The position numbers and the translations under genes were made by a program. From a virus (taxonomy: Duplodnaviria > Heunggongvirae > Uroviricota > Caudoviricetes), in IMG/VR virus record IMGVR_UViG_3300042401_001499: a DNA stretch of 64,000 nucleotides; one strand, written 5' to 3'. Position 1 is the stretch's first letter, and each line of letters opens with the position of its first letter. The notes under the pieces are model-generated. The model saw only the letters and a program-made list of their open reading frames with translations. It made no database searches and was not told the origin of the DNA. Of the stretch, positions 2,700 to 35,872 are shown in pieces.

Positions 2700-5033
2700 A
2701 TGCAAATAGAAAAAAAGTACTACCATGTTGACAGTATCGAGACTGTTAATCTTCTTATCGAACATATTAATCAGTCAGAGGTTATTGCCTATGATACTGA
2801 GACAAGTGGCTTAAATGTTAGAAAAGGATCTATCGTAGGATGGTCCATATCAGGAGAAGAAGGAATAGGATTTTATCTCCCTACTCAGAAATGGAATACA
2901 GAAACAAATCAATTGGAAGAATGTAGTATTGGTGGCAAAGGAGCACATGGTATTACTAAAAAGTTACTCCCGCTGCTTAAGGGTAAGAAACTAGTAATGC
3001 ACAATGCTTCTTTTGACTGCCGTTTTACAAAGAACTATTACGGAGTATCTTTATTAGAAGATCTTTGGGTAGATACAGCTCTACTTGTTCATACAGTACA
3101 GGAAGAGGGAGCAGGTATGGGAGTATTTGGATTAAAAGCATTAGCAATCTCTATTCAGAAAGAGATTGGATTAGATGTACAAGAAGCAGCCAATAAGGAA
3201 CAAGTAGAGTTAAAAGAATCTATTAAAGCAAACGGAGGATCAACCACGAAAGACCTCTATGAAATTTTCAAAGCAGATATGGCAATTCTGTCAAAGTATG
3301 CTGCAGCCGATACAGATTTAACCCTCAGGGTTTGTAATCACTTCCTAAAAGTGTTAAAGGCGGAAGGATTAGAGAAATTCTTCTTTGAAGAAGAAGTAAT
3401 GCCTCTTTATAGAGAAGTAACTATTCCAATGGAAGAGTTAGGAGTAGCATTAGATCTTCCACTACTGGAAAAGACTAAAGAGGATATTACAAATGATTTA
3501 CAGTCAAATAAAAAGATTGTAATCGATAGCATTTTAAGTATTCCAGAGGCCAAGGAATGGGTAGTCGATACAGCACTATATACTTATCCACCTTCGCATA
3601 AAGGAAACTGGGCACAGAATTTAATTATGCTTCATTCACTTCCCCTAGAAAGAAGCGAGAAGACTAGAAAGTATTCTTTAACTAAGAAAGCTATTGACGA
3701 ATTAGATGAGAGTAACATAAAACAATTTCTACTAACAGGAGATTTATCTCTACTAGACGAAATGGAAGTTGTTAGAATCTCTATGTCAATGTGGAAGGAA
3801 GACAATGAAGGAGACTATTTGAATATACAATCAAAGAAACACTTAGGTGAGATTGCATTTAAGTATATGGGAATTAAACCTCTTACTCAGACTAAAAAAG
3901 GACAAGATCAATTCGATATGGATATGTTAGAGGAACTAGCCAAGACATATGAATGGGCAAATAATCTTAGAACATATAATAAGTTACTAAAGATTAAATC
4001 AACCTACATCGATAGATTCCTAGACGGTCAAGAAGACGGAAGATACTATTTCTATTATAAGCAGCATGGTACAGTATCAGGACGATATGGTTCAGATGCA
4101 CAACAATTACCTAAACCTAAAGAAGAAGGAGAAGATACCCCACTACTTGTAAAATATACAAATGTAGTAAGAGAGTTCTTAATTGCAGGAGAAGGAAGAA
4201 AGTTAATCGATAATGATTATACTTCTCTAGAACCTCACTGCTTTGCTTCTGTAGCAGGTGATATTAATCTTCAAGAGATCTTTAACAACGGATGGGATTT
4301 TTATTCTACTGTTGCCATAAGAACTGAGAAGCTAGATCAAGATAAAGTAAAGTATCCAAATGGTGTTTCACCTGATACTAAATCTCCTATCTTCTTAAAG
4401 AAATTAGATCCAGTAAAAAGAAATCAAGCAAAGGCTTATTCATTAGGAATTGCATACGGAATGGAAGCATACGCATTGGCTAAAACTCTAGATATATCTC
4501 AGAAAGAAGCTGATACTCTTGTAGCAGGTTACCTAGATGGTTTTCCTCAATTAAAAGAGTGGAGAGTTAATTCTAGAGAGCAAGTAAAACAACATGGGTA
4601 TATCCAAAATAAAGTAGGACGAATCAGACACTTACCAAAAGTAAAACTTATCTTTGAGAAATTTGGAGATCAAGTATTGGATTGGAGATTTAGAAAGAGT
4701 CTAGAGAATCAATACGGAAAAGAGCCTGTAATGCAGATGTATAGAGATTATCGAAATGGATTGAACAACTGCTTGAATTATCAGCTACAGTCACTAGCAG
4801 CGGCGGTTGTGAATAGAGCAGCAGTACAGATCAACAGAAAGGCAAAAGAGTTAGGAATAGATGCTAGAGTACAGGCACAGATTCATGATCAACTTATCAT
4901 AAACATTAGAGAAGATCAAGCAGAAATGTTTATGCCTTATGTAAAAGAGCTAATGGAACTAACAACACAACTTCCAGGAGTAACTCTAAAGGCACCACCA
5001 CAAATAGCAAATAACTTTGCAGAAGGTCATTAG
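2700..5033 (+). CDS. polA: DNA polymerase I (family A) with 3-prime to 5-prime exonuclease domain
   Basis: Exo I motif YDTETSGL. Motif A DYTSLEPHCFA. Motif B KRNQAKAYSLGIAYGM (R..K...G..YG). Motif C IHDQLII. Confidence 0.9.
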   Translation: MQIEKKYYHVDSIETVNLLIEHINQSEVIAYDTETSGLNVRKGSIVGWSISGEEGIGFYLPTQKWNTETNQLEECSIGGKGAHGITKKLLPLLKGKKLVMHNASFDCRFTKNYYGVSLLEDLWVDTALLVHTVQEEGAGMGVFGLKALAISIQKEIGLDVQEAANKEQVELKESIKANGGSTTKDLYEIFKADMAILSKYAAADTDLTLRVCNHFLKVLKAEGLEKFFFEEEVMPLYREVTIPMEELGVALDLPLLEKTKEDITNDLQSNKKIVIDSILSIPEAKEWVVDTALYTYPPSHKGNWAQNLIMLHSLPLERSEKTRKYSLTKKAIDELDESNIKQFLLTGDLSLLDEMEVVRISMSMWKEDNEGDYLNIQSKKHLGEIAFKYMGIKPLTQTKKGQDQFDMDMLEELAKTYEWANNLRTYNKLLKIKSTYIDRFLDGQEDGRYYFYYKQHGTVSGRYGSDAQQLPKPKEEGEDTPLLVKYTNVVREFLIAGEGRKLIDNDYTSLEPHCFASVAGDINLQEIFNNGWDFYSTVAIRTEKLDQDKVKYPNGVSPDTKSPIFLKKLDPVKRNQAKAYSLGIAYGMEAYALAKTLDISQKEADTLVAGYLDGFPQLKEWRVNSREQVKQHGYIQNKVGRIRHLPKVKLIFEKFGDQVLDWRFRKSLENQYGKEPVMQMYRDYRNGLNNCLNYQLQSLAAAVVNRAAVQINRKAKELGIDARVQAQIHDQLIINIREDQAEMFMPYVKELMELTTQLPGVTLKAPPQIANNFAEGH

Positions 5034-5096
5034 AAGTTGTTTCCTTAGATATTTATTCATATATTAATAAAATAAGTTATAAATTAAAATCAGTTT

Positions 5097-7068: not shown

Positions 7069-7236
7069 ATGAACAAGCAAGAATTATTCGAACAAATCGA
7101 TGAATTGTATCAAAGTTTTGTAGCAAGCCATAACGGAACTACTAAAAAATCACAAGCAGGAGCAAGAAAATCTATTGGAGAGGTTAAGAAATTAATCACG
7201 GACTATAGAAAAGCTTCAACAGCAGAGAGTAAATAA
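7069..7236 (+). CDS. Small Lys-rich protein (55 aa), histone-H1-like / nucleoid-associated candidate
   Basis: ATG at 7069 to TAA at 7234-7236. Not in the track (under 60 aa). Fills an otherwise gene-free gap after groEL. Confidence 0.35.
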   Translation: MNKQELFEQIDELYQSFVASHNGTTKKSQAGARKSIGEVKKLITDYRKASTAESK

Positions 7237-7246
7237 GAAGGGACCG

Positions 7247-7294
7247 AGAGGGGAGGGGGCGTCAAAACCTCCTCACCGAAGGTGTCACGCGCAA
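7247..7294 (+). repeat. GC-rich conserved intergenic element, copy 1 (GAGGGGAGGGGGCG ... CTCACCGAAGGTGTCACGCGCAA)
   Basis: A 13-mer plus a 23-mer are identical to a second copy at 32822-32865. The GC content is strikingly above the local AT-rich background. Confidence 0.6.
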
Positions 7295-7315
7295 AATTAA
7301 CCAATTAACAAACAT

Positions 7316-8200: not shown

Positions 8201-8228
8201 AAAGAGGCCTCGTGCCTCTTTTTTTTGT
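8201..8228 (+). terminator. Rho-independent terminator
   Basis: Stem AGAGGC / GCCTCT with loop CTCGT, followed by TTTTTTTT. Confidence 0.6.
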
Positions 8229-26779: not shown

Positions 26780-27103
26780 ATGGCTAGAGATACAATGGAA
26801 AAGAAACTTTTTATCGAAAGCATAATCCTTTTAAGAGAGATAGAAGATAGAAGAGACTTTATGGAGGAAGAGATTGGAATGGATATGTCTATGTATGAAG
26901 AGAAGTTCTTACAGATTATAGAGAATCTATTTAAAGTTCATTTTACAAAAGAACAATTTGCTTTAATACAATACTACCTATATAAAGTTCCGGAGATTGA
27001 AGATTGGGATGGAAAGATTGATATTACAGACGGAAAGGAAATGATTACTGTTGACTTTGAAACTCCTGATCAAGTATGGAATGTTATATCCAGCTTAAAA
27101 TAA
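26780..27103 (+). CDS. Hypothetical protein (start moved to the internal ATG after the upstream stop)
   Basis: Track ORF 26705 overlaps the upstream gene. ATG at 26780 is in frame and non-overlapping. Confidence 0.4.
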   Translation: MARDTMEKKLFIESIILLREIEDRRDFMEEEIGMDMSMYEEKFLQIIENLFKVHFTKEQFALIQYYLYKVPEIEDWDGKIDITDGKEMITVDFETPDQVWNVISSLK

Positions 27104-27114
27104 ATAAGAAAATA

Positions 27115-27151
27115 GTTGCTAGATAAGACTATTGTTCGTATATTTAGGTAT
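27115..27151 (+). promoter_or_regulatory. Conserved phage promoter, copy 1 (AGTTGC - ~20 nt - TATATTTAGGTAT)
   Basis: First of more than 21 near-identical copies. Bacteroidetes-type -33 TTG / -7 TAnnTTT architecture. Gene ATG at 27173. Confidence 0.6.
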
Positions 27152-27172
27152 AAATAATAAATTAAAACGGTT

Positions 27173-27580
27173 ATGAGCTTAGAACAAATTAAATGTACAA
27201 GGTGTAGGAATGATATGCCTAAACTTAGATTGGACAATTACGGATACGATTTCTGTATAGAATGTTCAGATGTAAAGCCTAAGGTAGGACGTATTAGAGT
27301 AGTTGGGGAAGGAGACTATACAGTCACTGAACTTGATATCTTAGACCAGGATACAGCTAGAAGACTTCAAGAGCTGGAGAATACCTCTAGAGGAGTTAGA
27401 AATGTTCCATTAGAGATCTTAAACTTTGATGAGGATGAAATGTCTGACGACAGTAGAGCAATCTCAGAAGCTACAGACAAAGCATTAGAAGGTGAATTAG
27501 AAGTCTTAGATGATGAAGAAGACTTAGAAGACCTAGAAGATGTTGAAGATGTAGAGCTTGAAGACGAAGACGACGAATAG
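27173..27580 (+). CDS. Zinc-ribbon protein with a highly acidic Asp/Glu-rich C-terminal tail
   Basis: CTRCRN ... CIEC C4 ribbon (DksA/TraR-like). Last 40 aa are almost entirely D/E/L. Confidence 0.5.
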   Translation: MSLEQIKCTRCRNDMPKLRLDNYGYDFCIECSDVKPKVGRIRVVGEGDYTVTELDILDQDTARRLQELENTSRGVRNVPLEILNFDEDEMSDDSRAISEATDKALEGELEVLDDEEDLEDLEDVEDVELEDEDDE

Positions 27581-28234
27581 ATGCCACCACCAAAATTCAT
27601 ATCGAAAGATGATTGCTTAAGAGCAATGCAAAATACTAGAAGTAACCGAGGAGCAGCTCGGTTTCTTCGATGTAGCTTTGTACACTATAAGAAGTATGCT
27701 AGAACGTATGTTAATGATCAAGGAGTAACTCTATGGGAGGCTCATAAGAATCAATCAGGCATAGGTATTCCTAAATATCTTCCTAACAAAGGTAAGCAAG
27801 CACCTCTTAAAGAATTGATTGAAGGGAAGATATCAGTAGCTTCTTTTGAGCCGGCTAAGATCAAACAGAGATTAATCTTTGAAGGCTATTTAAAAGAGGA
27901 ATGTAATCGATGTGGCTTTCATGAAGAGAGAGTAACAGATCATAAGATACCTTTGATACTTCAATTTAGAGATAAGAACAAAGTCAACTACGAGCTTTCT
28001 AATATAGAGCTTATGTGTTACAATTGCTCTTTCCTATACTCTGTATCACCTATCACCGATAGACAAGTAGCAGCAGCAGAGGATTCTGTAGACAGACAAG
28101 TAAGAGATTTTGATTGGGAGGTAGATGATGCAATGAAAGAGCATTTAGAATCATTAGGACTTTGGAATGAAGTACCAACAGATGGTTCACAATACATCTC
28201 AGAAAACTATAAAGGGAATGAAAAAGAAGACTAA
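27581..28234 (+). CDS. HNH-type endonuclease-like protein
   Basis: CNRCGFHEERVTDHKIP ... N ... CYNC resembles the HNH beta-beta-alpha-Me motif. Confidence 0.45.
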   Translation: MPPPKFISKDDCLRAMQNTRSNRGAARFLRCSFVHYKKYARTYVNDQGVTLWEAHKNQSGIGIPKYLPNKGKQAPLKELIEGKISVASFEPAKIKQRLIFEGYLKEECNRCGFHEERVTDHKIPLILQFRDKNKVNYELSNIELMCYNCSFLYSVSPITDRQVAAAEDSVDRQVRDFDWEVDDAMKEHLESLGLWNEVPTDGSQYISENYKGNEKED

Positions 28235-28345
28235 GCCCTCTAGGGAGAGAATTGTAGCTAACAAGCTTGTCAAACAATCTGAACAGAATGAAAAGCTGAG
28301 AGAGAAAACAATTAGTAATTCTTTTTGGAAATTATTTAGGAAATA

Positions 28346-28382
28346 GTTGCTAGAACAAACCTTTGTTCGTATATTTAGGTAT
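28346..28382 (+). promoter_or_regulatory. Conserved phage promoter, copy 2
   Basis: AGTTGCTAGAACAAACCTTTGTTCGTATATTTAGGTATGG. The ATG directly replaces the usual leader. Confidence 0.55.
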
Positions 28383-28707
28383 GGAAAAAACAGGTGCAAC
28401 AGTAAAGAAGCTTCATGACTTTAATACCTCAGGAGTATTAGAAGTATGTATAAAAGGTAACTGGTATAGGACTACTTGTAATGATTTTAGATCATTCGAT
28501 GGTAAGAGAAGAATAACTGAGCCAATCAAACAGCCAGGTATAGGGGATAGTTTTAATGATATAGAATTTAAGACCTATGACTATAACGGTCCAGTATATG
28601 TTCTTCAAACAAACTTAGAAGTAATCAGAATGGATACAGAGACAATTGTAACTAATCCATATATTGAATCAACACAAAAATCTTTACCTAACAGCAATCG
28701 TATATGA
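28381..28707 (+). CDS. Hypothetical protein (start at ATG 28381, probably leaderless)
   Basis: The track start at 28363 lies inside the promoter -7 element. ATG 28381 is in frame. Confidence 0.4.
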   Translation: MEKTGATVKKLHDFNTSGVLEVCIKGNWYRTTCNDFRSFDGKRRITEPIKQPGIGDSFNDIEFKTYDYNGPVYVLQTNLEVIRMDTETIVTNPYIESTQKSLPNSNRI

Positions 28708-29000
28708 AAAAATTAGTATTCAGATCCACAGATGAATTCTCAGAATTCTTTAAAGGAAAGAGCCCAGAGCTTACAAATGCAATAGTACATTCTATAAGAG
28801 AGGCTTTCATGTTTCATAAGAAGACAGCCAATCTATTTGAGATTACTTTTGATGAGAGTGATTCCGTATTTGAAATATCGCTATCGCATAAGGAATGGAT
28901 AATAGCATTAGAGAATTGTCTTTCTCACTATGAGGAGTGGGAGATGGGAGACGACGCAATAGATACATTTTTATTAATTAAAGAAATAAAAACATGGTAA
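28704..29000 (+). CDS. Hypothetical protein
   Basis: ORF, ATGA-coupled. Confidence 0.4.
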   Translation: MKKLVFRSTDEFSEFFKGKSPELTNAIVHSIREAFMFHKKTANLFEITFDESDSVFEISLSHKEWIIALENCLSHYEEWEMGDDAIDTFLLIKEIKTW

Positions 29001-29248
29001 AGCCTTATACTAAAACATTTACATGTGATATCACAGGAATTATAACGACCTACACTTACAACGGTGCTAGCATTGTAAATGGTATCATAAAAGCAGAGTT
29101 CGAATATCCTAAAGAATACTTAGATGAATTCAATAAAAAGGAAAAAAGACAGAGTAATCTTCCGAAAACAAAACAAATGTTCTTAAATCCTGCAACAGGA
29201 AAAGAAGTGGGATATTACAGAGCTAAGAATTTAGGCCTTGTAAAATAA
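28994..29248 (+). CDS. Hypothetical protein
   Basis: ORF only. Confidence 0.4.
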   Translation: MVKPYTKTFTCDITGIITTYTYNGASIVNGIIKAEFEYPKEYLDEFNKKEKRQSNLPKTKQMFLNPATGKEVGYYRAKNLGLVK

Positions 29249-29270
29249 ATTAAAAAAAGTTTGTATATTA

Positions 29271-29307
29271 GTTGCTAGAACGAATCTTTGTTCGTATATT
29301 TAGGTAT
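29271..29307 (+). promoter_or_regulatory. Conserved phage promoter, copy 3
   Basis: AGTTGCTAGAACGAATCTTTGTTCGTATATTTAGGTAT. Gene ATG at 29333. Confidence 0.6.
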
Positions 29308-29332
29308 AGAAATCAATTAAAAACAATAAGTT

Positions 29333-30157
29333 ATGTTAGCAAAATTCAACACAGGTTTAGATTCTTACCTTTCAAAAGATCAAGTAAAAGCTTTAGCACC
29401 AGTAGCATTCGCTACAGCACCAACAAGTGATAAAGTTAGTAAGGATTACTTACTAGTAAATACTGAGACTATCATCGATGACTTAGAAAAGTTAGGATGG
29501 CTTCCAGTTACAGCCTCTCAAAGAAAGGCTAGAAAGTCTGAAAAGGCTACAATCTTCTCCAAGCACATGGTATCCTTTCAGAATCCAGATCTTATGATCA
29601 AGGGTAAGAATGGTGATGATGCTTTTCCAAGAATCATTTTAACGAACTCCCATGATGGATTTAATTCTTTTCAGTTTAGAATTGGAATCTACAGATTGGT
29701 ATGTTCAAATGGATTGGTAGTAGCTGACGAGGAATTCTCAGCATTCAGAATACGTCACACAGGATATACCTTCGAAGAATTAAGAGGAGTAGTAGCACAA
29801 GCAGTAGCTGATCTTCCTAATAAGGTAATGATTTTAAATCAAATGCAGTTGAGAGAATTGTCTCCAGTAGAGCAAAGACAGTTAGCTATCGATGCAATGC
29901 AATTGAGAACAAATAGAATCGATGCTGTATGGGATGAAGAAACTATTCAAGACGTTTTAACTCCTATAAGAGATGCTGATAAAGGAAATGATCTTTGGAC
30001 AGTCTTTAATGTAATTCAAGAGAAGATTACTCAAGGAGGATATTCAGCAGCATTGAATGGTGCTAAGGTTAGAAAGGTTAGAAAGATCAAATCATTCGAG
30101 AAAGATCTTAAAGTGAATCAAGATTTATTCAAGCTAGCAGTAGCATTAGTAAACTAA
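29333..30157 (+). CDS. DUF932-family protein
   Basis: Size and the conserved stretch ILTNSHDGFNSFQFRIGIYRLVCSNGLV are typical of DUF932. Confidence 0.5.
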   Translation: MLAKFNTGLDSYLSKDQVKALAPVAFATAPTSDKVSKDYLLVNTETIIDDLEKLGWLPVTASQRKARKSEKATIFSKHMVSFQNPDLMIKGKNGDDAFPRIILTNSHDGFNSFQFRIGIYRLVCSNGLVVADEEFSAFRIRHTGYTFEELRGVVAQAVADLPNKVMILNQMQLRELSPVEQRQLAIDAMQLRTNRIDAVWDEETIQDVLTPIRDADKGNDLWTVFNVIQEKITQGGYSAALNGAKVRKVRKIKSFEKDLKVNQDLFKLAVALVN

Positions 30158-30396
30158 TGGATAGAGCAAAGTATATACAGATGAGAAAATCAGGCCAGTA
30201 TGATCTGGCTTGGTTTTACCAATACTTCCTGGAGAATAAGGATAAGAATAGAGTAACACCTCCCTTTGAAATATTTCAACAAGCCTTCAATATGTACTTC
30301 CAAATGAATGGAGCATTTATTCTAGAGCATATGGACAAGAAGATGGATGTATCAAAGATAGAAGATCAACAAGGAAATTTAATATACATAAACTAA
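30157..30396 (+). CDS. Hypothetical protein
   Basis: ORF only. Confidence 0.35.
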   Translation: MDRAKYIQMRKSGQYDLAWFYQYFLENKDKNRVTPPFEIFQQAFNMYFQMNGAFILEHMDKKMDVSKIEDQQGNLIYIN

Positions 30397-30398
30397 AC

Positions 30399-30638
30399 AT
30401 GGAAGGAAAAGTAAAAACACCGAAGGAATTAATGGCAGACTTAAAAGGAAATTACATTCAAGTAATTAAAAAGAATGGAAAGACTCACGATAAGCTTTAT
30501 AAAGATCCTCAGAGAGCAATCAGAGGAGTAGGAGGAGTAGAATATGTAAAGTACTTAAGAGAAGTTCTTAAAGAGCAAGTCAATTCAAGATACACAGAAG
30601 TAGATTCATTAACAGGAACACCAGAAAACGAATTATAA
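30399..30638 (+). CDS. Hypothetical protein
   Basis: ORF only. Confidence 0.35.
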   Translation: MEGKVKTPKELMADLKGNYIQVIKKNGKTHDKLYKDPQRAIRGVGGVEYVKYLREVLKEQVNSRYTEVDSLTGTPENEL

Positions 30639-30844
30639 TGGTAGAAAAAGTAGGATTAGCAGTAATGGCAGCTTTAGGAGTTGCAGTACTAACAGCAGTA
30701 TTATTGGCTTGGCCAACACAGTGGCTTTGGAATAACGCTCTAGTAGGAGCAGTGGATGGAATCAATCCAATAGGATTTTGGCAAGCATTAGGACTTACAT
30801 TCCTTTGCAATATATTATTCAAATCAACATCAAATAGTAAATAA
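30638..30844 (+). CDS. Small two-TM membrane protein
   Basis: Hydrophobic helices LAVMAALGVAVLTAVLLAW and GFWQALGLTFLCNILF. Confidence 0.4.
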   Translation: MVEKVGLAVMAALGVAVLTAVLLAWPTQWLWNNALVGAVDGINPIGFWQALGLTFLCNILFKSTSNSK

Positions 30845-30845
30845 G

Positions 30846-31133
30846 ATGAAGACAAAAACAATTTTAAAAGCAATTGGATTTTTTATAGGATGGTTGTTAT
30901 CATTCCAATTAATAGGTGTGGGAACATATCTAATGAATCAACCAAGCAATCTTTCATTTACATTTGGAGTATTAGCAGCACTATCAACAATTGGAGCCAT
31001 AGGGTACTTTGCATGGAACTTAGGAGGGTACATGGGTAAGTTATCAAAGGAGTATCTAGAGAGTAAAGAAGTTAAGCAAGAAGAGCCTGAGCAAGAAGTA
31101 GAAGAAGAAGTTAAACAAGTTAAACAAGAATAG
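30846..31133 (+). CDS. Small membrane protein with acidic C-terminal tail
   Basis: Two transmembrane helices and an EEPEQEVEEEVKQ tail. Confidence 0.4.
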   Translation: MKTKTILKAIGFFIGWLLSFQLIGVGTYLMNQPSNLSFTFGVLAALSTIGAIGYFAWNLGGYMGKLSKEYLESKEVKQEEPEQEVEEEVKQVKQE

Positions 31134-31135
31134 TT

Positions 31136-31498
31136 ATGGTATTTTTAATAGTAGTTTTAGTAGTACTGCTGCTTATATTCACAATAGTACTGGGAATATT
31201 TTTAGCAGAGAATGACGGTATATTAGATGACCAAACCGTAAAAGATTATCTAGATAAATTAGGAGATAGCTTTAACGTATACATCTCAGAATACACTCAC
31301 AGAATAGATCCAACATATTCAGCAAATGTAAAGAAGAGTATTGAACAATCTCCTGCAGTAATTCGATTAGTTTTCCCATATCACATAGAGTATGTAGGAG
31401 CAATTCCAGCATGGAGTAAATCAAAGCCTAGAATTGATGCAATGTTTGGACAAGGAACAAAAAGCAATTGGAAGAGAAAAAAATTAGGATTAGAGTAG
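31136..31498 (+). CDS. N-terminally anchored membrane protein
   Basis: Transmembrane helix VFLIVVLVVLLLIFTIVLGIFLA. Confidence 0.4.
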   Translation: MVFLIVVLVVLLLIFTIVLGIFLAENDGILDDQTVKDYLDKLGDSFNVYISEYTHRIDPTYSANVKKSIEQSPAVIRLVFPYHIEYVGAIPAWSKSKPRIDAMFGQGTKSNWKRKKLGLE

Positions 31499-31518
31499 AT
31501 TTATCGAAGTAAGTTTCG

Positions 31519-31531
31519 TATCTTTAAGTAT
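31519..31531 (+). promoter_or_regulatory. Variant promoter -7 box (TATCTTTAAGTAT)
   Basis: Degenerate copy of the conserved -7/leader core. Gene ATG at 31580. Confidence 0.35.
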
Positions 31532-31579
31532 TATTAAAAACAAATAAAAGTAAACAATTAAATTTAAACAAAAGTAGTT

Positions 31580-32437
31580 ATGAACAGAATTTTAGTAGTA
31601 GTAGCGTTGATCTTAGTAACATTAGGATTAGCAGGGTCATGTAAGATTGCCGATTCGGCAGAAGTAGCATTAGTGGTAGATCAAATTGGAACCAATAAAG
31701 GAGTTCCCAACATTGAAATGGCAAGTGGATTTATTTTCTATTTCCCGCCAACACAAGATGTATTTATGTATCCAACATCAGTTCAACACAAGGTATGGAC
31801 AGCATCAGTAGATGAAGACTCTCCAACAGATGAGCATATTGATGTAACGTCAGCAGATGGAGCGACATTTGGATTAGATGTATCTATTAACTTACAATTG
31901 CAGAGAGCAAGAGCAGCTGAATTATTTATCAAGTATAGAGTTGATATGGAAGATCTAATTAATTCAAGAGTAAGAACTATAGTTAGAAAAGAGTTACTAG
32001 ACAATGCAGTTAACTTCGCTTCAGATAGTTTATTACAGCATAGAAATATCTATGAAGGTAATGTAACAAGATCTTTAACAGCTTCTTTAGAGAAGGAAGG
32101 ATTCACATTAAATAACATTGCAATTCTTAAAATGCAATTGCCTAAATCATATAAAGCAGCTATTGAAAGAAAGATTGCAGTATTACAAGAGACAGCAACT
32201 ATTATCTCTCAGACAAAGCAAGCAGAGCAGACAGCATTAAAGAAAGTAGCATTAGCAAAAGGTAACTATGAAGCAGCACAATATGATGCTAAAACAAAAG
32301 AAATCTTATCTCAACCTAAGTTATTAGAATTGTACAAAGCAGAGACAGCTAGAATAAGAGCTACCAATGGTACATCAGAGTATGGATCTAATAACGTCTT
32401 TGGATCTACATCAGGAATACTCTTGAATAGAAACTAA
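31580..32437 (+). CDS. SPFH/band-7 (prohibitin/HflC-like) domain lipoprotein
   Basis: Signal peptide plus lipobox LAGSC, then an SPFH core with a C-terminal coiled coil. Confidence 0.65.
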   Translation: MNRILVVVALILVTLGLAGSCKIADSAEVALVVDQIGTNKGVPNIEMASGFIFYFPPTQDVFMYPTSVQHKVWTASVDEDSPTDEHIDVTSADGATFGLDVSINLQLQRARAAELFIKYRVDMEDLINSRVRTIVRKELLDNAVNFASDSLLQHRNIYEGNVTRSLTASLEKEGFTLNNIAILKMQLPKSYKAAIERKIAVLQETATIISQTKQAEQTALKKVALAKGNYEAAQYDAKTKEILSQPKLLELYKAETARIRATNGTSEYGSNNVFGSTSGILLNRN

Positions 32438-32457
32438 AATATATTAAAAATAAATGT

Positions 32458-32487
32458 AAAAAGGCTTGCTTATGTGAGCCTTTTTTC
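32458..32487 (+). terminator. Rho-independent terminator
   Basis: AGGCT - 10-nt loop - AGCCT followed by TTTTTT. Confidence 0.55.
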
Positions 32488-32488
32488 T

Positions 32489-32501
32489 TATCTTTAAGTA
32501 T
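32489..32501 (+). promoter_or_regulatory. Variant promoter -7 box (TATCTTTAAGTAT)
   Basis: Same variant as at 31519. Directly follows a terminator and precedes a small ORF. Confidence 0.35.
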
Positions 32502-32523
32502 TAGAAACAAACAAATAAAGGTT

Positions 32524-32700
32524 ATGAAAGTACAAGATTTAAAAGCAGGTGATAAGTTTAAGATGAATGGACTATCAGTAAGCGGTAAGCAGACTAAGGT
32601 TAAATGCGAGATGATTAGATACAATGGAATGGATAAGTACATTGTAGTATGCCAGGGTATTAGTATATTGGTAGATGGTACTGATGAAGTCTCTGTATAA
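32524..32700 (+). CDS. Small hypothetical protein (58 aa)
   Basis: ATG at 32524 to TAA at 32698-32700. Not in the track. Preceded by the variant promoter. Confidence 0.35.
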   Translation: MKVQDLKAGDKFKMNGLSVSGKQTKVKCEMIRYNGMDKYIVVCQGISILVDGTDEVSV

Positions 32701-32821
32701 CTAAAGGATAAGAGCTATGACAGAAGAAGAGTTACAGGCATTACTTGATGAGGAAGAGAAATACATCAATGAATGGAGAGATAGTTTAACACAGGAGCAG
32801 ATTGATTCGATTTAAAAACTT

Positions 32822-32894
32822 AGGGGAGGGGGCGCAAGACTACTCACCGAAGGTGTCACGCGCAATTTCTCCCAACCTTCCAGGTTGTTGGAGG
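32822..32894 (+). repeat. GC-rich conserved element, copy 2, plus adjacent bulged hairpin
   Basis: AGGGGAGGGGGCG ... CTCACCGAAGGTGTCACGCGCAA is identical to copy 1. It is followed by the stem TCTCCCAACC / GGTTGTTGGAG. Confidence 0.6.
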
Positions 32895-32915
32895 TAAAAT
32901 CTAAATAAAAACTAT

Positions 32916-33170
32916 ATGAAAACAATTTACAAGTACGAATTAAGATCACAAGATGCTAGTATAAAGCTTCCTCTAGGGGCAGAGATACTTACAGTACAGA
33001 TTCAAGACGGTAGGCCAATGATATGGGCTTTAGTAGATCCAGAGAATGTATTAGTGGATAGATTTATATCCATTGTAGGTACAGGATGGCAAGTAGAGGA
33101 CAATACGAAATATATTTGTACATTCATGGAAGGATATTTTGTGTGGCATGTATTTGAAATGATACAATAG
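32916..33170 (+). CDS. Hypothetical protein
   Basis: ORF only. Confidence 0.4.
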   Translation: MKTIYKYELRSQDASIKLPLGAEILTVQIQDGRPMIWALVDPENVLVDRFISIVGTGWQVEDNTKYICTFMEGYFVWHVFEMIQ

Positions 33171-33298
33171 TATGAAAGTAATCTATATGGAAAGAACTAT
33201 TGCTCTTATGTTACATGAAAGAGCCAAAGAGACAGAGATATTAATAGCCTCAGGAGAGGTTAAGAAGTCAGAACAAGGAGTTAATTATTTACTAACAA

Positions 33299-33493
33299 TT
33301 GAAGAGGATGGTGATAGTATTGTATCAGAAGAAGTATAAGGGGATGAAGGTCATGTTCAATTCTAGAAAAGGAAGCGGGATGATAATAGAGGGGATAGCC
33401 GTACAAGAGGTACCGGAACTAGATGTAGTAATTCTCAGAGATAGAGAAAACTTCTCACATGCAGTAAGTAAGAATTCAATAACAGAGATATGA
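33299..33493 (+). CDS. Hypothetical protein
   Basis: ORF only. Confidence 0.35.
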   Translation: MKRMVIVLYQKKYKGMKVMFNSRKGSGMIIEGIAVQEVPELDVVILRDRENFSHAVSKNSITEI

Positions 33494-33696
33494 AAAAGTT
33501 ACTTTGGATATTGTATTGGAGACTTACAGGAATGATAGGGTATACAATCGTCCTTAGCGATTGGTATGATCCGGAAACATTTACATTAAAGAGAAAGAAC
33601 AGTCACATGACCTTTCTCAAGATTCTAAGTAAGGAGGATGCAAACGGACATAGAAAAATAAAGGAAGTATTTAAAATACAAATAAGAAAGATATGA
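33490..33696 (+). CDS. Hypothetical protein
   Basis: ORF only. Confidence 0.35.
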   Translation: MKKLLWILYWRLTGMIGYTIVLSDWYDPETFTLKRKNSHMTFLKILSKEDANGHRKIKEVFKIQIRKI

Positions 33697-33842
33697 AAGA
33701 AATAACAATCAAAGATGTTTTTAATAAGGAGAAAGCCCAGGAAATAAAAACAACCTTAGATGAGATAAAAAGGCTTAGAAATGAAAATAAAATACTCAGA
33801 GAGGAATTAGAATACGAAAAAAGAAAGAACATTATAAAATAA
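33693..33842 (+). CDS. Small coiled-coil protein (49 aa)
   Basis: ATG at 33693 to TAA at 33840-33842. Fills a gap in an otherwise gap-free gene string. Not in the track. Confidence 0.3.
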   Translation: MKEITIKDVFNKEKAQEIKTTLDEIKRLRNENKILREELEYEKRKNIIK

Positions 33843-33847
33843 TAGAG

Positions 33848-34045
33848 ATGATAAAGACTAGAATGGTTATAATGAAAGGAGGTCATACAGAATATGATTT
33901 CGAAACAGAGATTATAAAGCCTAGAATAGGGGAGTTAATCTCCATAGGAGGTAATCATTATGAAGTAAAATTCATACAATACCTCTTTGATGATGAAAAA
34001 CAATTCAAACATATACTTGTAACAGCAATAAATGGAGGAAGATGA
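33848..34045 (+). CDS. Hypothetical protein
   Basis: ORF only. Confidence 0.35.
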   Translation: MIKTRMVIMKGGHTEYDFETEIIKPRIGELISIGGNHYEVKFIQYLFDDEKQFKHILVTAINGGR

Positions 34046-34302
34046 CAGTTAAAGAACTAATTGAAAGTCTAAGTAAGATAGAAGACAAGGACATAAGAGT
34101 AATAGTAAGTGGATATGAAGGAGGCGTAGATGATATAGTAATAGGAAACGGTATAGATAATAGTACTATAGTAATTCCAGCAATCATACATGTAGCCTTA
34201 GATGTAAATAAAGAATGGTATTACGGTAAACATAAAAGAGTAGATGATATGTATGGAGCGACTAATAGTGAATACCATATAGTAAAGGCAATTATACTAT
34301 AG
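34042..34302 (+). CDS. Hypothetical protein
   Basis: ORF only. Confidence 0.35.
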   Translation: MTVKELIESLSKIEDKDIRVIVSGYEGGVDDIVIGNGIDNSTIVIPAIIHVALDVNKEWYYGKHKRVDDMYGATNSEYHIVKAIIL

Positions 34303-34305
34303 AGA

Positions 34306-34396
34306 TACCCATTCATAGACCCGTTTACATACCCGTTTACATACCCAATTCGTTACCCATTTGTAACCCGTTTCTGTCCCCGTTTCATACCCATAC
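34306..34396 (+). repeat. Iteron array A: 8 copies of ACCC(G/A)TTT-like motif at ~12-bp phasing
   Basis: ACCC cores at 34307, 34319, 34331, 34343, 34355, 34366, 34379 and 34389. The region is non-coding. Confidence 0.7.
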
Positions 34397-34682
34397 ATAC
34401 ATGCATGTCACGTACGGAAGATACCTGGAGAGACATAGAGAGAACTACTGAGATACAATAAGAAAAGGTAAGACTTTGATTAAACATAAAGAGTAGTAAA
34501 ACCCTTTGAAGAGTATAAAGACATATAGTACTAGGTATGAAAAGGTACTGTAAAGGATATACGATGTGTAAGAAAAGAATAAAGGCACGGTAAAATAAAG
34601 TAAGGAAAAATGTGGGGACTGTGTCTCCTTATTACTTTTTTTTCTATATAGAGATAATCTATTGTCTATAGTGTAAGGAGAT

Positions 34683-34867
34683 ACCCGATTTCGATACCCA
34701 TTTGGTACCCGTTCCTATAGGCGACAGGGAGAGAGTGTAAGGAAAAACCCGTTCTAGCTACCCGTTTGTAACCCGTCCTGTTACCCGACCTAGTAACCCG
34801 TTTGGAAACCCCTCTAGTGACCCGGTTGAGACCCGTTTCTTTCCCCGTTTTCTACCCCCTTCGGGGG
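34683..34867 (+). repeat. Iteron array B: ~13 copies of (T/A)ACCCG(T)TT motif at 11-13-bp phasing, ending in a CCCCC-TTC-GGGGG hairpin
   Basis: ACCC cores at 34683, 34696, 34707, 34747, 34760, 34771, 34783, 34796, 34808, 34820, 34831, 34843 and 34854. Confidence 0.7.
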
Positions 34868-34884
34868 AAATAACTTAAAATAAA

Positions 34885-34921
34885 GTTGCCTAACATAACT
34901 ATTGTTCGTATCTTTAGGTAT
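34885..34921 (+). promoter_or_regulatory. Conserved phage promoter, copy 4 (TATCTTTAGGTAT variant)
   Basis: AGTTGCCTAACATAACTATTGTTCGTATCTTTAGGTAT immediately right of the iterons. Confidence 0.55.
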
Positions 34922-34942
34922 AAAGATAAAAAAACAGACACT

Positions 34943-35155
34943 ATGAGAACAATGAGAACAGAGAAGGTAGCAGAATGGTTAGGAAATCAAGGAATGGTTG
35001 AGGCTAAGGCTAACTTACTCAGCACCTTTGGTCATATGGAGAATATTGACTACGGAGGAATAGAAGGTTTCTTGTATATCTATTATAAAGACTTTGCTGG
35101 GGATGTTTTCCTCTCTATGCAGTGTCAGGTTTCTACAACTCTAACCTTTGATTAA
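34943..35155 (+). CDS. Hypothetical protein (start moved to ATG 34943)
   Basis: Track ORF 34886 starts inside the promoter. First ATG after the leader is in frame. Confidence 0.4.
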   Translation: MRTMRTEKVAEWLGNQGMVEAKANLLSTFGHMENIDYGGIEGFLYIYYKDFAGDVFLSMQCQVSTTLTFD

Positions 35156-35269
35156 ACACTATGAAGACAATTCAATTTACCATGCAAGAGAGATGGGCTG
35201 CCTCACGGCATACCGTACAGAAGTCTAAGAAGACCTACAACAGGAAGGAGAAGCACTCCTCAAAGAAAC

Positions 35270-35297
35270 AGGGGCCTCAAAAGGGTCCCTTTTATTA
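35270..35297 (+). terminator. Rho-independent terminator
   Basis: AGGGGCC - loop - GGTCCCT (7 bp including one G-U) followed by TTTTATTA. Confidence 0.45.
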
Positions 35298-35465
35298 TAC
35301 CTAAAGCTTTGCTTTAAGTGCCAGGACCAGTTAAAGCATCACTTTAAGTTAAAGCATCACTTTAAGTGGGTATGAAACAGTAGTGTGTATTACCTACTAC
35401 AGAATATAAGGTACCGGCCCGTCTACTCTTCCGACTCTCTTTCAAGATCAGGCCCCTTATCCTTC
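35298..35465 (-). ncRNA. Putative non-coding RNA transcribed leftward from the minus-strand promoter
   Basis: A full-consensus promoter on the minus strand points into ~170 nt. That stretch has no ORF longer than 3 codons on either strand and contains the 18-mer tandem repeat. Confidence 0.3.
35331..35366. repeat. Perfect tandem duplication of an 18-mer (TTAAAGCATCACTTTAAG x2)
   Basis: Exact direct repeat. Lies inside the antisense transcript region. Confidence 0.8.
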
Positions 35466-35469
35466 TAAC

Positions 35470-35507
35470 ATACCTAAAGATACGAACATAACTCCTCTCT
35501 AGCAACT
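35470..35507 (-). promoter_or_regulatory. Conserved phage promoter, minus-strand copy (only one in the window)
   Basis: The reverse complement reads AGTTGCTAGAGAGGAGTTATGTTCGTATCTTTAGGTATG. Confidence 0.55.
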
Positions 35508-35556
35508 ATTTTTACATTTATTTTGTTATTAATAATGAATATAAATAACGTACAGG

Positions 35557-35593
35557 AGTTGCCTCCTATGTACTTATTCCTTATCTTTAGGTA
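35557..35593 (+). promoter_or_regulatory. Conserved phage promoter, copy 6
   Basis: AGTTGCC ... CTTATCTTTAGGTATCAATAATTAAAACA. Gene ATG at 35618. Confidence 0.55.
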
Positions 35594-35617
35594 TCAATAA
35601 TTAAAACAATAAAGGTC

Positions 35618-35872
35618 ATGACTAAATCAGAAACATTCAAATTACATTTTCCAGAGTTTAAAGGAGTGGTACATTTCTTCACCTCAGATTGTGAGCAATT
35701 AAACTTTATAGATGTACCTAATGATACAGTTGAATTCACTACTTCTTTTACATTGAGTTGTGGATGTTGTTCTGACTTTGATCAGAGAGAGGGATCTCTA
35801 AGTCATATCATGGATCTTATGAGTGGAGGTGAATTTGTAGAACTTTTATCAATAGTAAATAATTTAAAATAA
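35618..35872 (+). CDS. Hypothetical small protein
   Basis: ORF behind a promoter copy. Confidence 0.45.
   Translation: MTKSETFKLHFPEFKGVVHFFTSDCEQLNFIDVPNDTVEFTTSFTLSCGCCSDFDQREGSLSHIMDLMSGGEFVELLSIVNNLK

What the first reader, a model, noticed from the sequence alone, without database searches (positions are those of the whole stretch)
7247..7294. GC-rich ~45-nt element present twice in intergenic DNA (also at 32822-32894)
AGGGGAGGGGGCG - 7-8 variable nt - CTCACCGAAGGTGTCACGCGCAA occurs identically at 7249-7294 and 32822-32865. Both copies lie just downstream of a small gene stop in otherwise about 70 percent AT DNA. Both can form GCG...CGC closing pairs around a CACC-GAA-GGTG mini-hairpin. 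Copy 2 is followed by an additional bulged hairpin. It looks like neither a terminator (no U-tract) nor the array promoter. Possibilities include a structured cis-regulatory RNA, a protein-binding site such as a packaging or recombination site, or a homing or mobile-element footprint.
Basis: seen in the sequence. Interest (0 to 1): 0.55.

Follow-up and report, generated by a model that had tools for sequence, protein, structure and literature searches.

The report
Conserved structured RNA between phage genes
The two GC-rich copies are real and belong to a roughly 55-nt RNA element (three small hairpins plus a conserved tail), not in Rfam, that sits just after a stop codon in immuto-like Flavobacterium phages; its function is unknown, most plausibly marking or protecting the end of the upstream message.

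Summary
The window is a relative of the T4-like Flavobacterium phage vB_FspM_immuto.

**What it is.** The element is on the mRNA-sense strand and is conserved in about 40-50 related viral contigs. It always lies at one of two syntenic sites:
- Site A, after an Hc1-like gene downstream of groES-groEL.
- Site B, after a 32-aa ORF.

**Structure.** Comparative analysis supports three parts plus a tail:
- a CC-GNRA-GG mini-hairpin, in A copies only;
- a purine/pyrimidine hairpin P1, rich in G·U pairs;
- a C-GAA-G-capped hairpin P2 with clear compensatory changes;
- a nearly invariant single-stranded tail, UCACGCGCAA.

There are 42 G·U cells against 4 A·C cells, so the fold is selected on the + strand, meaning RNA.

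**What it is not.** I found no support for an Rfam family, an intrinsic terminator, the array promoter, a boxA/nut site, a host sequence, a duplicated gene end, or a multicopy mobile element.

**Position.** It abuts the upstream stop codon (mostly 1-8 nt), while the downstream gene and spacing vary.

**Best inference (about 35%).** It is an intercistronic element that a specific factor recognises for mRNA processing or 3'-end protection. Function is untested. Interest is moderate.

The parts
7234..7236 (+). TAA stop codon of the 55-aa Hc1-like ORF (7069-7236). Copy A begins 5 nt downstream.
   Evidence: Pfam Hc1, E = 1.1e-4, 22.5 bits against a cut-off of 23.5, so just below threshold. Across 39 distinct variants the stop-to-element distance is -13 to +12 nt, mostly 1-8.
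7244..7251 (+). Copy A, hairpin H0: CC-GAGA-GG, a 2-3 bp stem capped by a GNRA tetraloop.
   Evidence: Model R1 alignment. Loop variants in relatives are GAGA 14, GGCA 7, GGAA 2, GAAA 2 and GGGA 1 of 39. Pairs 3-19 and 4-18 are 97% paired. H0 is absent from B copies.
7254..7273 (+). Copy A, hairpin P1: AGGGGG (7254-7259) pairs with CCTCCT (7268-7273). The loop is CGTCAAAA (7260-7267).
   Evidence: Six pairs are 94.5% paired. Three of them show changes on both sides, for example G-C to A-U, and there are many G.U pairs.
7274..7284 (+). Copy A, hairpin P2: CACC-GAA-GGTG.
   Evidence: Compensatory variants in relatives: GACGAC/GTCGTC (L075), CGAC/GTCG (L083), CAAC/GTTG (L124), GACAAC/GTTGTC (L158) and U.G in L055. 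The loop is GAA in 35 of 39 variants.
7285..7296 (+). Copy A, conserved unpaired tail TCACGCGCAAAA.
   Evidence: CGCG is invariant in all 30 unique variants of the first alignment, and the tail is lost in only one later variant (L173). The tail is kept even where P2 is lost (L047, immuto site B) or replaced (L179). No complement of the tail occurs elsewhere in the window.
32813..32815 (+). TAA stop codon of the 32-aa ORF (32717-32815). Copy B follows.
   Evidence: The C-terminus of this upstream ORF is constant in all B-type loci, while the downstream gene differs between them.
32822..32835 (+). Copy B, G-rich arm AGGGGAGGGGG plus GCGC. In this copy the local pyrimidine partner is missing (spacer CAAGACTA).
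   Evidence: The model score is 36.5 bits with two non-standard P1 pairs. RNAfold pairs this arm with 32866-32873 instead.
32845..32855 (+). Copy B, hairpin P2: CACC-GAA-GGTG.
   Evidence: Identical to copy A.
32856..32867 (+). Copy B, conserved tail TCACGCGCAATT.
   Evidence: The same tail survives in the degenerate site-B copy of phage immuto.
32866..32895 (+). B-specific 3' extension: TTTCTCCC, a possible distal partner of the G-rich arm, plus a further bulged hairpin (about 32875-32895).
   Evidence: RNAfold MFE. The sequence is conserved in all B-type loci and in immuto, where the loop is larger. The pairing is not tested by covariation.

Best explanation
**What it is.** The element is a lineage-specific structured RNA of about 55 nt. 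It is transcribed as an internal part of polycistronic phage mRNAs and lies directly 3' of the stop codon of the upstream gene.

**Architecture (shown by comparative analysis).**
- A CC-GNRA-GG mini-hairpin, in site A only.
- A G-rich/pyrimidine hairpin P1. Its loop usually carries GGCG(Y).
- A 4-6 bp hairpin P2 capped by a C-GAA-G triloop.
- An unpaired tail, UCACGCGCAA.

**Function (inferred, not shown).** It is an intercistronic 'punctuation' module. The compact GC-rich fold and conserved unpaired nucleotides would be recognised by a phage or host factor, either an endoribonuclease or an RNA-binding protein. The fold would form a barrier that defines and protects the 3' end of the upstream message: groES-groEL-hc1 at site A, and the 58-aa and 32-aa ORFs at site B. 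This would uncouple the stability and yield of the upstream message from the downstream genes, which vary between phages.
For: **Transcribed in sense, inside operons.**
- Every listed ORF of at least 120 aa is on the + strand, apart from one nested inside groEL.
- No promoter-like or terminator-like site lies between the upstream genes and either copy.
- The inferred units are P(about 5034-5065)-groES-groEL-hc1-[A]-three ORFs-T(8201-8221), and P(about 32489)-58aa-32aa-[B]-...

**RNA-level structure.**
- 96.5% of 434 pair cells are standard pairs.
- 6 of 12 pairs show double-sided changes.
- 0 of 500 shuffles reach the observed covariation score.
- Slid controls score far lower.
- P2 tested alone on a MAFFT alignment gives the same answer.
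- RNAalifold returns the same three hairpins.
- G.U cells number 42 against 4 A.C cells, so the fold is selected on the + strand only.

**Purifying selection.** The P2+tail block has 85% mean pairwise identity. hc1 third codon positions in the same genomes have 62%.

**Tied to the upstream gene's 3' end, not to the downstream gene.**
- Stop-to-element distance is -13 to +12 nt. Element-to-next-ATG distance is 10-136 nt.
- The downstream gene differs among B-type loci.
- In L083 the element is followed by a terminator and a new promoter.
- In more distant relatives the same position holds a plain G-rich terminator hairpin (L169, L171).

**Clustering.** Extra GC-rich hairpins often follow the element, as is typical of stabiliser clusters.
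Against: - No transcript-end or half-life data exist, so the function is pure inference.
- A simple exonuclease barrier would not need an invariant tail and GAA loop. This forces the added assumption of a specific recognition factor, which is unidentified.
- The element is dispensable. It is absent in L079, replaced by another hairpin in L080/L081, and half-degenerate at site B of phage immuto.
- The CM-derived alignment is fitted to the proposed structure, so its pair counts lean toward that structure.
- Independent compensatory events are few, about 4-5 lineages for P2.
- RNAfold's MFE for many variants is a different, extended hairpin, although comparative data do not support it.
Confidence: 0.35

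Rival explanations
1. It is a transcription-elongation control RNA. One form would be a processive antiterminator like HK022 put or lambda nut. The other would be a leaky, factor-dependent terminator. Either would modify RNA polymerase as it passes, so that downstream terminators such as 8201-8221 are read through into the lysis-type genes.
For: - One or two copies per genome, each inside an operon and upstream of a terminator.
- The layout of hairpins with GNRA/GAA loops plus a conserved single-stranded tail resembles boxB plus boxA.
- More distant relatives have a terminator plus promoter at the same spot (L169, L171), which looks like an alternative regulatory solution.
- Site A is followed by a GH19 'chitinase' and a holin.
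- In some variants a run of 3-7 U follows the tail.
Against: - The host-type boxA (GTTC[AT]TTGA, recovered from 109 Flavobacteria-type rrn leaders) is not near either copy.
- Site A lies about 2.2 kb from its presumed promoter. put and nut sites lie close to theirs.
- The window's own copies lack a U-tract (AAAATTAACC and TTTCTCCC).
- No N- or Q-like gene was identified.
Confidence: 0.15
2. It is a translational operator or riboswitch-like sensor that controls initiation of the downstream gene. It would work by protein or ligand binding, or by sensing ribosomes terminating on the upstream ORF.
For: - The conserved loops and tail suggest specific recognition.
- Alternative pairings exist. H0 and P2 share the same stem sequences. 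In L158 the 5' arm, the P2 5' arm and the P2 3' arm all changed together.
- A ribosome terminating 1-8 nt upstream would melt H0 and the 5' side of P1 (inference).
Against: - The distance to the next ATG varies from 10 to 136 nt, and the downstream gene is not conserved.
- In L083 a terminator separates the element from any downstream gene.
- Nothing in the element pairs with the A/U-rich initiation region.
- The pairs specific to the alternative extended fold have no compensatory support and break whenever P2 changes.
- No Rfam riboswitch matches.
Confidence: 0.1
3. It is a trans-acting or decoy RNA. After processing, the compact RNA would bind and titrate a host factor such as a ribonuclease, a defence protein, or a ribosome-biogenesis or ribosomal protein.
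For: - The sequence is as conserved as non-synonymous coding positions.
- It is independent of the neighbouring downstream gene.
- It carries a strong SD-like GGAGG/GAGGUG core in a host whose ribosomes hide the anti-SD sequence.
Against: - It has no promoter or terminator of its own.
- No similar sequence was found in bacterial genomes that it could mimic.
- There is nothing to indicate that it accumulates as a separate RNA.
Confidence: 0.1
4. It is a DNA-level site: a binding site for a phage protein, an R-loop-type replication origin, or a recombination or cassette-boundary sequence.
For: - One or two copies per genome.
- The non-template strand is G-rich, which would favour R-loops.
- The gene content downstream of site B is mosaic.
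- Identical variants of the 5' half occur at site A in some genomes and at site B in others (L029 against L014). This points to exchange between the sites.
Against: - Stems covary while loops stay fixed. The 42 G.U pairs would be C.A mismatches on the other strand.
- In phage immuto all dG is replaced by fdPreQ1. That removes N7 and fills the major groove.
- A much better origin candidate lies at 34300-34880: about 17 iteron-like ACCCGTTT repeats.
- There are no inverted terminal repeats.
Confidence: 0.1
5. It is the footprint of a small mobile GC-rich element (MITE- or PATE-like, or a homing remnant) that inserted at two sites.
For: - Two copies lie in unrelated contexts.
- It is a GC-rich island in AT-rich DNA.
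- The site is empty in L079.
- The element is internally an imperfect direct repeat: ACCGAGAGGTG..GCGCAAA and CACCGAAGGTG..GCGCAAA.
Against: - Across 40+ contigs it is only ever found at the same two syntenic sites.
- It was not found in other phages.
- In bacterial genomes the exact-pattern scan gave only chance hits inside GC-rich proteobacterial genes, plus one phage-like contig binned in a MAG.
- There are no terminal inverted repeats, no target-site duplication and no shared target motif.
- Purifying selection and compensatory changes indicate a function rather than a scar.
Confidence: 0.05

Closest known systems
Intercistronic mRNA stabiliser hairpins: the C(UUCG)G and other very stable hairpins of phage T4 intercistronic regions, REP/BIME clusters in E. 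coli operons, and the puf operon hairpins of Rhodobacter (recalled from established literature, not read here).
   Same: - Small, very stable GC-rich hairpins capped by stable loops (GNRA, cGAAg).
- Placed just after a stop codon inside an operon of an AT-rich T4-like phage.
- No U-tract.
- Often in tandem with further hairpins.
- Independent of the identity of the downstream gene.
   Different: - Here the loops and a 10-nt unpaired tail are sequence-conserved across diverged genomes.
- Only 1-2 copies occur per genome.
- The three hairpins form a fixed module.
- Generic stabilisers are numerous and constrained only in stability.
Phage T7 RNase III processing sites (R0.3 ... R18.5).
   Same: - Conserved structured elements of about 50-60 nt between cistrons of polycistronic phage mRNA.
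- Cleavage leaves a protective 3' hairpin on the upstream message.
- The predicted alternative extended fold, two stems around an internal loop, resembles them.
   Different: - The comparatively supported fold here is three short hairpins, not a roughly 20-bp interrupted duplex.
- T7 has ten sites, not one or two.
- No cleavage data exist here.
Lambda nut (boxA + boxB) and HK022 put antitermination RNAs.
   Same: - One or two copies per phage genome, transcribed in sense.
- Small hairpins with GNRA-like loops next to a conserved single-stranded stretch.
- They act in cis on the transcribing polymerase.
   Different: - The host boxA consensus is absent.
- The element is not promoter-proximal.
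- No N-like protein was identified.
- The put two-stem architecture and sequence are unrelated, and no Rfam family matches.
PeSL cassettes, the promoter-early stem-loop 'mobile regulatory cassettes' of T4-type phages (recalled from the literature).
   Same: - Short conserved intergenic modules at the boundaries of shuffled small genes in T4-like phages.
- Site B sits at such a mosaic boundary.
   Different: - PeSLs are a promoter plus a stem-loop, and are numerous. In this window that role is played by the 21 GTTGC...TATATTTAGG array promoters.
- The GC-rich element contains no promoter and has at most two copies.
3' minor domain of Bacteroidia 16S rRNA: the helix 45 tip ACC-GGAA-GGUG plus the anti-SD tail ACCUCCUUUCU.
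   Same: - H0 (ACC-GNRA-GGUG) and P2 (ACC-GAA-GGUG) resemble the helix 45 tip.
- P1 pairs an SD-like strand (GGAGG/GAGGUG) with an anti-SD-like strand (ACCUCCU in the window's copy A).
- The 16S sequence was verified.
   Different: - The similarity is statistically weak: p about 0.02 for three variants and 0.13 for the window copies.
- The anti-SD-like arm is not conserved (CCCUCU, CUCUCUCCU in other variants).
- The long stem of helix 45 is missing.

Membership tests
Any Rfam 15 family (riboswitches, ribozymes, phage and Bacteroidetes motifs such as Flavo-1, put, preQ1) | A score at or above the family gathering threshold, or at least a convincing E-value, against the covariance model. | tested here: not met
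   There were 0 hits at gathering thresholds in the whole window. With E <= 10 around both copies, the only hits were snoRNA, miRNA and sRNA noise at 8-17 bits, far below their thresholds.
Intrinsic (Rho-independent) terminator | A GC-rich hairpin immediately followed by a U-tract. | tested here: not met
   The scans report no terminator at either site. The sequence after the last helix is AAAATTAACC at A and TTTCTCCC at B. Bona fide terminators of this phage, such as 8201-8221 and 32460-32483, carry T6-8.
Bacteroidetes-type promoter (the window's array promoter) | A -33 GTTGC box, about 19 nt of spacer, then a -7 box TAT[AC]TTTAGG. | tested here: not met
   The motif map lists 21 promoter-like sites and 22 -7 boxes. 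None overlaps 7240-7300 or 32815-32900.
Lambda/rrn-type nut site | A boxA sequence matching the host NusB/NusE site, next to a boxB hairpin. | tested here: not met
   The leader motif GTTC[AT]TTGA(A), which I read as the host boxA by its position and its likeness to known boxA sequences, was recovered from Flavobacteria-type rrn leaders: 81 hits in 109 leaders. No match at <=1 mismatch lies near either copy.
Lambda/rrn-type nut site | A cognate N-like antiterminator protein encoded by the phage. | not tested
   No systematic search of the phage proteome was made. The immuto annotation lists none.
Solitary CRISPR-repeat mimic (RNA anti-CRISPR) or other mimic of a host RNA | Near-identity to a host CRISPR repeat or other host sequence. 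| tested here: not met
   A scan of 185,579 species genomes with CACCGAAGGTGNCACGCGCAA gave only chance hits inside GC-rich proteobacterial genes, plus one phage-like contig binned in a MAG. Limitation: only an exact-pattern scan of the 3' half was done.
MITE / IS200-IS605 PATE-type mobile mini-element | Many copies at non-homologous sites, terminal inverted repeats or subterminal hairpins with a fixed target motif, and polymorphic insertion. | tested here: not met
   Only two syntenic sites are seen across more than 40 contigs. The flanks share no target motif or duplication. One empty site (L079) is too diverged to define boundaries.
Structured cis-acting RNA motif (generic: conserved secondary structure with covariation on the transcribed strand) | Base pairs maintained by compensatory and wobble changes, more than in controls. 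| tested here: met
   96.5% of cells are paired, 6 pairs show double-sided change, and 0 of 500 shuffles reach the score. P2 passes on an independent MAFFT alignment. RNAalifold gives the same consensus.
Structured cis-acting RNA motif (generic) | Strand specificity consistent with the direction of transcription. | tested here: met
   There are 42 G.U against 4 A.C cells. Every listed ORF of at least 120 aa is on the + strand, apart from one nested inside groEL.
Intercistronic mRNA processing/stability element | RNA 3' or 5' ends at the element, and different abundance or half-life of the upstream and downstream segments. | not testable with these tools
   This needs transcript-end mapping and decay measurements in infected cells. 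Only positional evidence is available.
H-type pseudoknot (P1 loop GCG(Y) pairing with tail (R)CGC) | Covarying loop-to-tail pairs. | tested here: inconclusive
   GCG is present in the P1 loop in 33 of 39 variants, but both partners are invariant, so there is no covariation. The tail stays conserved in variants that lack the loop GCG (L047, L076, L082).

The most novel reading that the evidence does not exclude
The element is a phage-made mimic of the 3' minor domain of the host 16S rRNA. It would combine a helix-45-tip-like ACC-GNRA-GGUG hairpin with an intramolecular SD:anti-SD-like helix. In Bacteroidia the ribosome's anti-SD is normally hidden by bS21, bS18 and bS6. The mimic would capture or sense a ribosome-associated factor (bS21, Era or KsgA-type proteins) or bS21-free ribosomes. 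That would link phage gene expression to the unusual translation system of the host.
Probability: 0.04. Interest if true: 0.8.

Novelty: new member of a known kind. Interest (0 to 1): 0.4.

Why it matters
**For annotation.** This adds an undescribed structured RNA motif with covariation support to a phage group that has had essentially no RNA-level annotation. In the GenBank record of phage immuto nothing is annotated under the site-A copy, and the degenerate site-B copy is partly called as a tiny ORF.

**Why the group is interesting.**
- These are T4-like phages of Flavobacteria.
- Their DNA has every G replaced by a 7-deazaguanine derivative.
- Their hosts do not use Shine-Dalgarno sequences.

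How such phages set relative expression inside long one-directional operons is unknown.

**What it enables.** A conserved module anchored to the stop codon, with an invariant unpaired tail, is a concrete handle. It predicts a specific RNA-binding or RNA-cleaving partner that could be fished out experimentally.

**If it is only a stabiliser.** Then the finding is ordinary biology, and mainly useful for annotation and for an Rfam entry.

Tried and rejected
1. **Known RNA family.** Rfam at gathering thresholds on the whole window, and at E <= 10 around both copies, found nothing. There are no tRNA or tmRNA genes.
2. **Terminator or promoter.** Rejected by motif scans.
3. **Duplicated gene end.** Flanking DNA and proteins are unrelated.
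4. **Coding sequence.** Element length varies by non-multiples of 3 between variants (51-61 nt).
5. **Host-derived sequence or CRISPR-repeat mimic.** The genome scan gave only chance hits.
6. **Presence in other cultured phages.** Only the immuto isolates match among 50,697 records.
7. **Extended single hairpin.** This is the RNAfold MFE for many variants. Its specific pairs have no compensatory support and break when P2 changes.
8. **G-quadruplex in DNA.** Variants with GGTGAGGTGG lack the G-tracts, and the phage DNA carries 7-deazaguanine.
9. **nut-like site.** A boxA-like motif from Flavobacteria-type rrn leaders was derived and is not found near the element.
10. **16S 3'-domain mimicry.** The similarity is only marginal.
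11. **Tail pairing with another site in the window.** No complement exists.
12. **More copies.** The covariance model finds none in the window. In immuto it finds none beyond site A and the site-B remnant.
13. **Association with the downstream gene.** Rejected, because the downstream genes differ between loci.
Full report
**1. Observation**

AGGGGAGGGGGCG is at 7249-7261 and 32822-32834. CTCACCGAAGGTGTCACGCGCAA is at 7272-7294 and 32843-32865. All are on the + strand.

The 23-mer was never matched in 100 shuffles, even at 3 mismatches. The spacers are 10 and 8 nt, not 7-8.

Each copy begins a few nt after a stop codon: TAA 7234-7236 of a 55-aa ORF and TAA 32813-32815 of a 32-aa ORF. Surrounding DNA is 33-36% GC. 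Two of the four GC-rich 30-nt islands found in the window are these two copies.

Outside the two blocks the flanks share nothing, and the flanking proteins are unrelated. The 'duplicated gene end' refutation therefore fails.

**2. Genomic setting**

[quoted passage not shown] GroEL is 88% identical at the protein level. The synteny polA-groES-groEL-small ORF-TM protein-...-GH19 'chitinase'-holin is preserved.

Every listed ORF of at least 120 aa is on the + strand, apart from one nested inside groEL.

It has 21 copies between 27 and 44 kb.

Copy A lies inside a unit that seems to run from a promoter-like site at about 5034-5065, through groES, groEL and an Hc1-like ORF, then three further small ORFs, to a canonical terminator at 8201-8221. 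The Hc1 Pfam hit has E = 1e-4, just under the cut-off. Copy B lies inside a unit that starts at the terminator and promoter at 32447-32507. These units are inferred from motifs only.

**3. Distribution**

The exact 23-mer occurs in 40 IMG/VR loci, always in one of the same two contexts.

Unbiased retrieval by synteny gave two further sets: 80 loci anchored on GroEL and 80 anchored on the Hc1-like protein. These show the following.
- The element follows the Hc1-like gene in essentially all phages whose GroEL is at least about 80% identical, and in one at 66% (L083).
- It is absent in L079.
- It is replaced by a different hairpin in L080/L081.
- In more distant relatives the same spot holds a plain G-rich terminator plus promoter (L169, L171) or nothing.

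The cultured phage immuto has one full copy at site A (record 42435-42492, one T>C change). At site B it has a degenerate copy that lost hairpin P2 but kept the G-rich arm, GCGC, the tail and the 3' extension.

Nothing similar was found elsewhere.
- Among 50,697 phage records only the immuto isolates match.
- A pattern scan of one genome per 185,579 bacterial and archaeal species gave only chance hits in GC-rich genes and one phage-like contig in a MAG.
- A covariance model finds no further copy in the window or in immuto.

**4. Structure**

Per-variant folding and alignment reveal a common architecture.

- **H0 (A copies only).** (A)CC-GNRA-GG(U). Loops are GAGA, GGAA, GAAA and GGGA, plus GGCA in the immuto type.
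- **P1.** A purine-rich arm (GGGGAGG, GGUGAGG, GGGAGGGG, GAGGAGGAG ...) pairs with a pyrimidine arm (CCUCCU, CCCUCU, CCCCUCUC, CUCCUCCUC ...). Many pairs are G.U, and some are compensatory G-C to A-U changes. The loop is 5-13 nt and usually contains GGCG(Y).
- **P2.** Normally CACC-GAA-GGUG. Fully compensated versions are GACGAC/GUCGUC (L075), CGAC/GUCG (L083), CAAC/GUUG (L124), GACAAC/GUUGUC (L158) and UCACC/GGUGA (L057, L072). L055 has a U.G pair.
- **Tail.** An unpaired UCACGCGCAA.

Quantitative support:
- On the MAFFT alignment, P2 has 5 pairs with double-sided changes, 0 of 500 shuffles reach the score, and slid controls are much lower.
- On the model-guided alignment of 39 distinct sequences, the three helices are 96.5% paired, with 6 of 12 pairs changed on both sides and 0 of 500 shuffles reaching the score. 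This alignment is fitted to the model, so the counts lean its way.
- RNAalifold returns the same three helices.
- G.U cells outnumber A.C cells 42 to 4. The structure is therefore selected on the + strand, which is the mRNA sense.

RNAfold often prefers a single extended hairpin. This happens because H0 and P2 share the same stem sequences. The pairs specific to that fold have no compensatory support and break whenever P2 changes. Only L158 suggests that the 5' arm can co-vary with P2.

A loop-tail pseudoknot (GCG(Y) with (R)CGC) is possible in 33 of 39 variants. It shows no covariation, and the tail stays conserved where the loop partner is missing.

In the window's B copy the local pyrimidine arm of P1 is missing. 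The G-rich arm can pair instead with UUUCUCCC at 32866-32873, giving a nested fold that encloses GCGC:GCGC and P2. This pairing is untested.

**5. Selection**

In the unbiased GroEL-anchored set, the 23-nt P2+tail block has 85% mean pairwise identity. hc1 third codon positions in the same genomes have 62%, and first and second positions have 86% and 90%.

Element length varies by non-multiples of three, so it is not coding.

**6. DNA or RNA?**

Three points argue against a double-stranded-DNA protein site and for RNA.
- Stems vary while loops stay fixed.
- There is an excess of wobble pairs on one strand.
- In phage immuto 100% of dG is replaced by 7-(formylamino)methyl-7-deazaguanine (PMC10516641).

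A better candidate origin or regulatory array lies elsewhere: about 17 iteron-like (T/A)ACCCGTTT repeats at 34300-34880.

**7. What it is tied to**

The distance from the upstream stop codon to the element is -13 to +12 nt, mostly 1-8. The distance to the next start codon is 10-136 nt.

At site B the upstream ORF end is constant, while three different genes follow in different phages. In L083 the element is followed by a terminator and a new promoter.

The element thus belongs to the 3' end of the upstream cistron and not to the leader of the downstream one.

**8. Mechanism**

*Shown:* a conserved, strand-specific, three-hairpin RNA with conserved unpaired nucleotides, inside operons, abutting a stop codon.

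*Inferred (about 35%):* an intercistronic punctuation element. A specific factor would recognise the compact GC-rich fold as a processing and/or 3'-end-protecting module for the upstream message. This would allow different yields of, for example, chaperonin and Hc1-like protein against the downstream membrane and lysis-type genes.

*Rivals:*
- Antitermination or conditional termination, about 15%. A boxA-like leader motif GTTC[AT]TTGA, derived here from Flavobacteria-type rrn leaders, is absent near the element.
- An operator or switch for the downstream gene, about 10%. The variable spacing and variable downstream genes argue against it.
- A trans-acting decoy RNA, about 10%.
- A DNA-level site, about 10%.
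- A mobile-element footprint, about 5%.

*Most novel reading not excluded:* the element mimics the 3' minor domain of the host 16S rRNA. The sequence GTAGCCGTACCGGAAGGTGCGGCTGGAACACCTCCTTTCT was verified. The resemblance is statistically weak, with p about 0.02 for some variants and 0.13 for the window copies. The anti-SD-like arm is not conserved. I give this reading about 4%.

**9. Comparison with known systems and verdict**

The element works most like the intercistronic stabiliser or processing hairpins of T4, T7 and bacterial operons. It differs from them by its sequence-conserved loops and tail and by its very low copy number.

It fails the membership tests for:
- Rfam families;
- intrinsic terminators;
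- the phage's promoters;
- nut sites;
- host-sequence mimics;
- MITE/PATE elements.

It is best filed as a new, lineage-restricted member of the broad class of cis-acting structured mRNA motifs, with function untested. Interest is moderate (0.4). The biology could be ordinary, unless the conserved tail turns out to recruit an unusual partner.

Noticed in passing
window 34300-34880: This is a non-coding stretch of about 580 nt. It holds two clusters of + strand iteron-like repeats, (T/A)ACCCGTTT, at roughly 12-nt spacing: 7 copies at 34306-34385 and at least 10 at 34682-34861. They flank a spacer of about 300 nt. The stretch ends in a CCCCCTTCGGGGG hairpin just before the first array promoter. 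It could be a replication origin or a regulator-binding array.
   Followed up: partly
window 27095-43590: There are 21 copies of a Bacteroidetes-type promoter, GTTGC-N19-TTCGTATATTTAGGTAT, each in front of a small ORF. Two of them (37591-37604 and 40498-40511) carry a GCCTC-TTCG-GAGGC hairpin between the -33 and -7 boxes.
   Followed up: partly
L042 725-905 (immuto record 64654-64834): The degenerate site-B copy in phage immuto is partly annotated as the 3' end of a 38-aa hypothetical protein (immuto26A_116, ending ...KRRGR*). The G-rich arm GGAGGGGGCGC supplies the last codons. Either the ORF call is spurious or the element has been partly recruited into coding sequence.
   Followed up: no
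L004, L011, L029, L039, L056, L124 and immuto (L041 4890-4925), just 3' of copy A: Many site-A loci carry a second GC-rich hairpin with a C-rich 5' arm and a G-rich 3' arm between the element and the next ATG. Examples are CACCCGCCC-AAGGA-GGGGGGG and CCCAC-CCTCCGGA-GTGGG. The window's copy A lacks it.
   Followed up: no
L080/L081 (about 4300-4380) and L169, L171 (just after the Hc1-like gene): At the position of copy A, related phages carry other elements. L080/L081 have an AU-richer hairpin, ATACGGTCACA...TGTGATACGTAT. L169 and L171 have a plain terminator with a G-rich 5' arm (AGGGGAG-CTTTG-CTCCCCT-ATTTATTTTTT) followed by a promoter. P1 may have evolved from such a terminator hairpin.
   Followed up: no
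L014/L018/L038 (site B) versus L029/L053/L056 (site A): The same variant of the element's 5' half, GGGGAGGAGGGGGCGCTTCTCTCTC, is found at site B in some genomes and at site A in others. L034 looks like a chimaera of two variants. This suggests recombination or gene conversion between the two sites or between phages.
   Followed up: no
window 61834-62385 and 63544-64000: There are tandem 42-nt (14-aa) coding repeats, ...CATGC[AT]GAAGG..., inside a large ORF at the end of the window. They are probably a repetitive tail-fibre-like protein.
   Followed up: no
L263-L342 (Flavobacteria-type rrn operons from metagenomes): The rrn leaders share a boxA-like motif, GTTC[AT]TTGA(A), about 110 nt upstream of the 16S 5' end. 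They also share a promoter with TACCTTTGCACCCGC. These were used here only as a reference for the nut test.
   Followed up: partly
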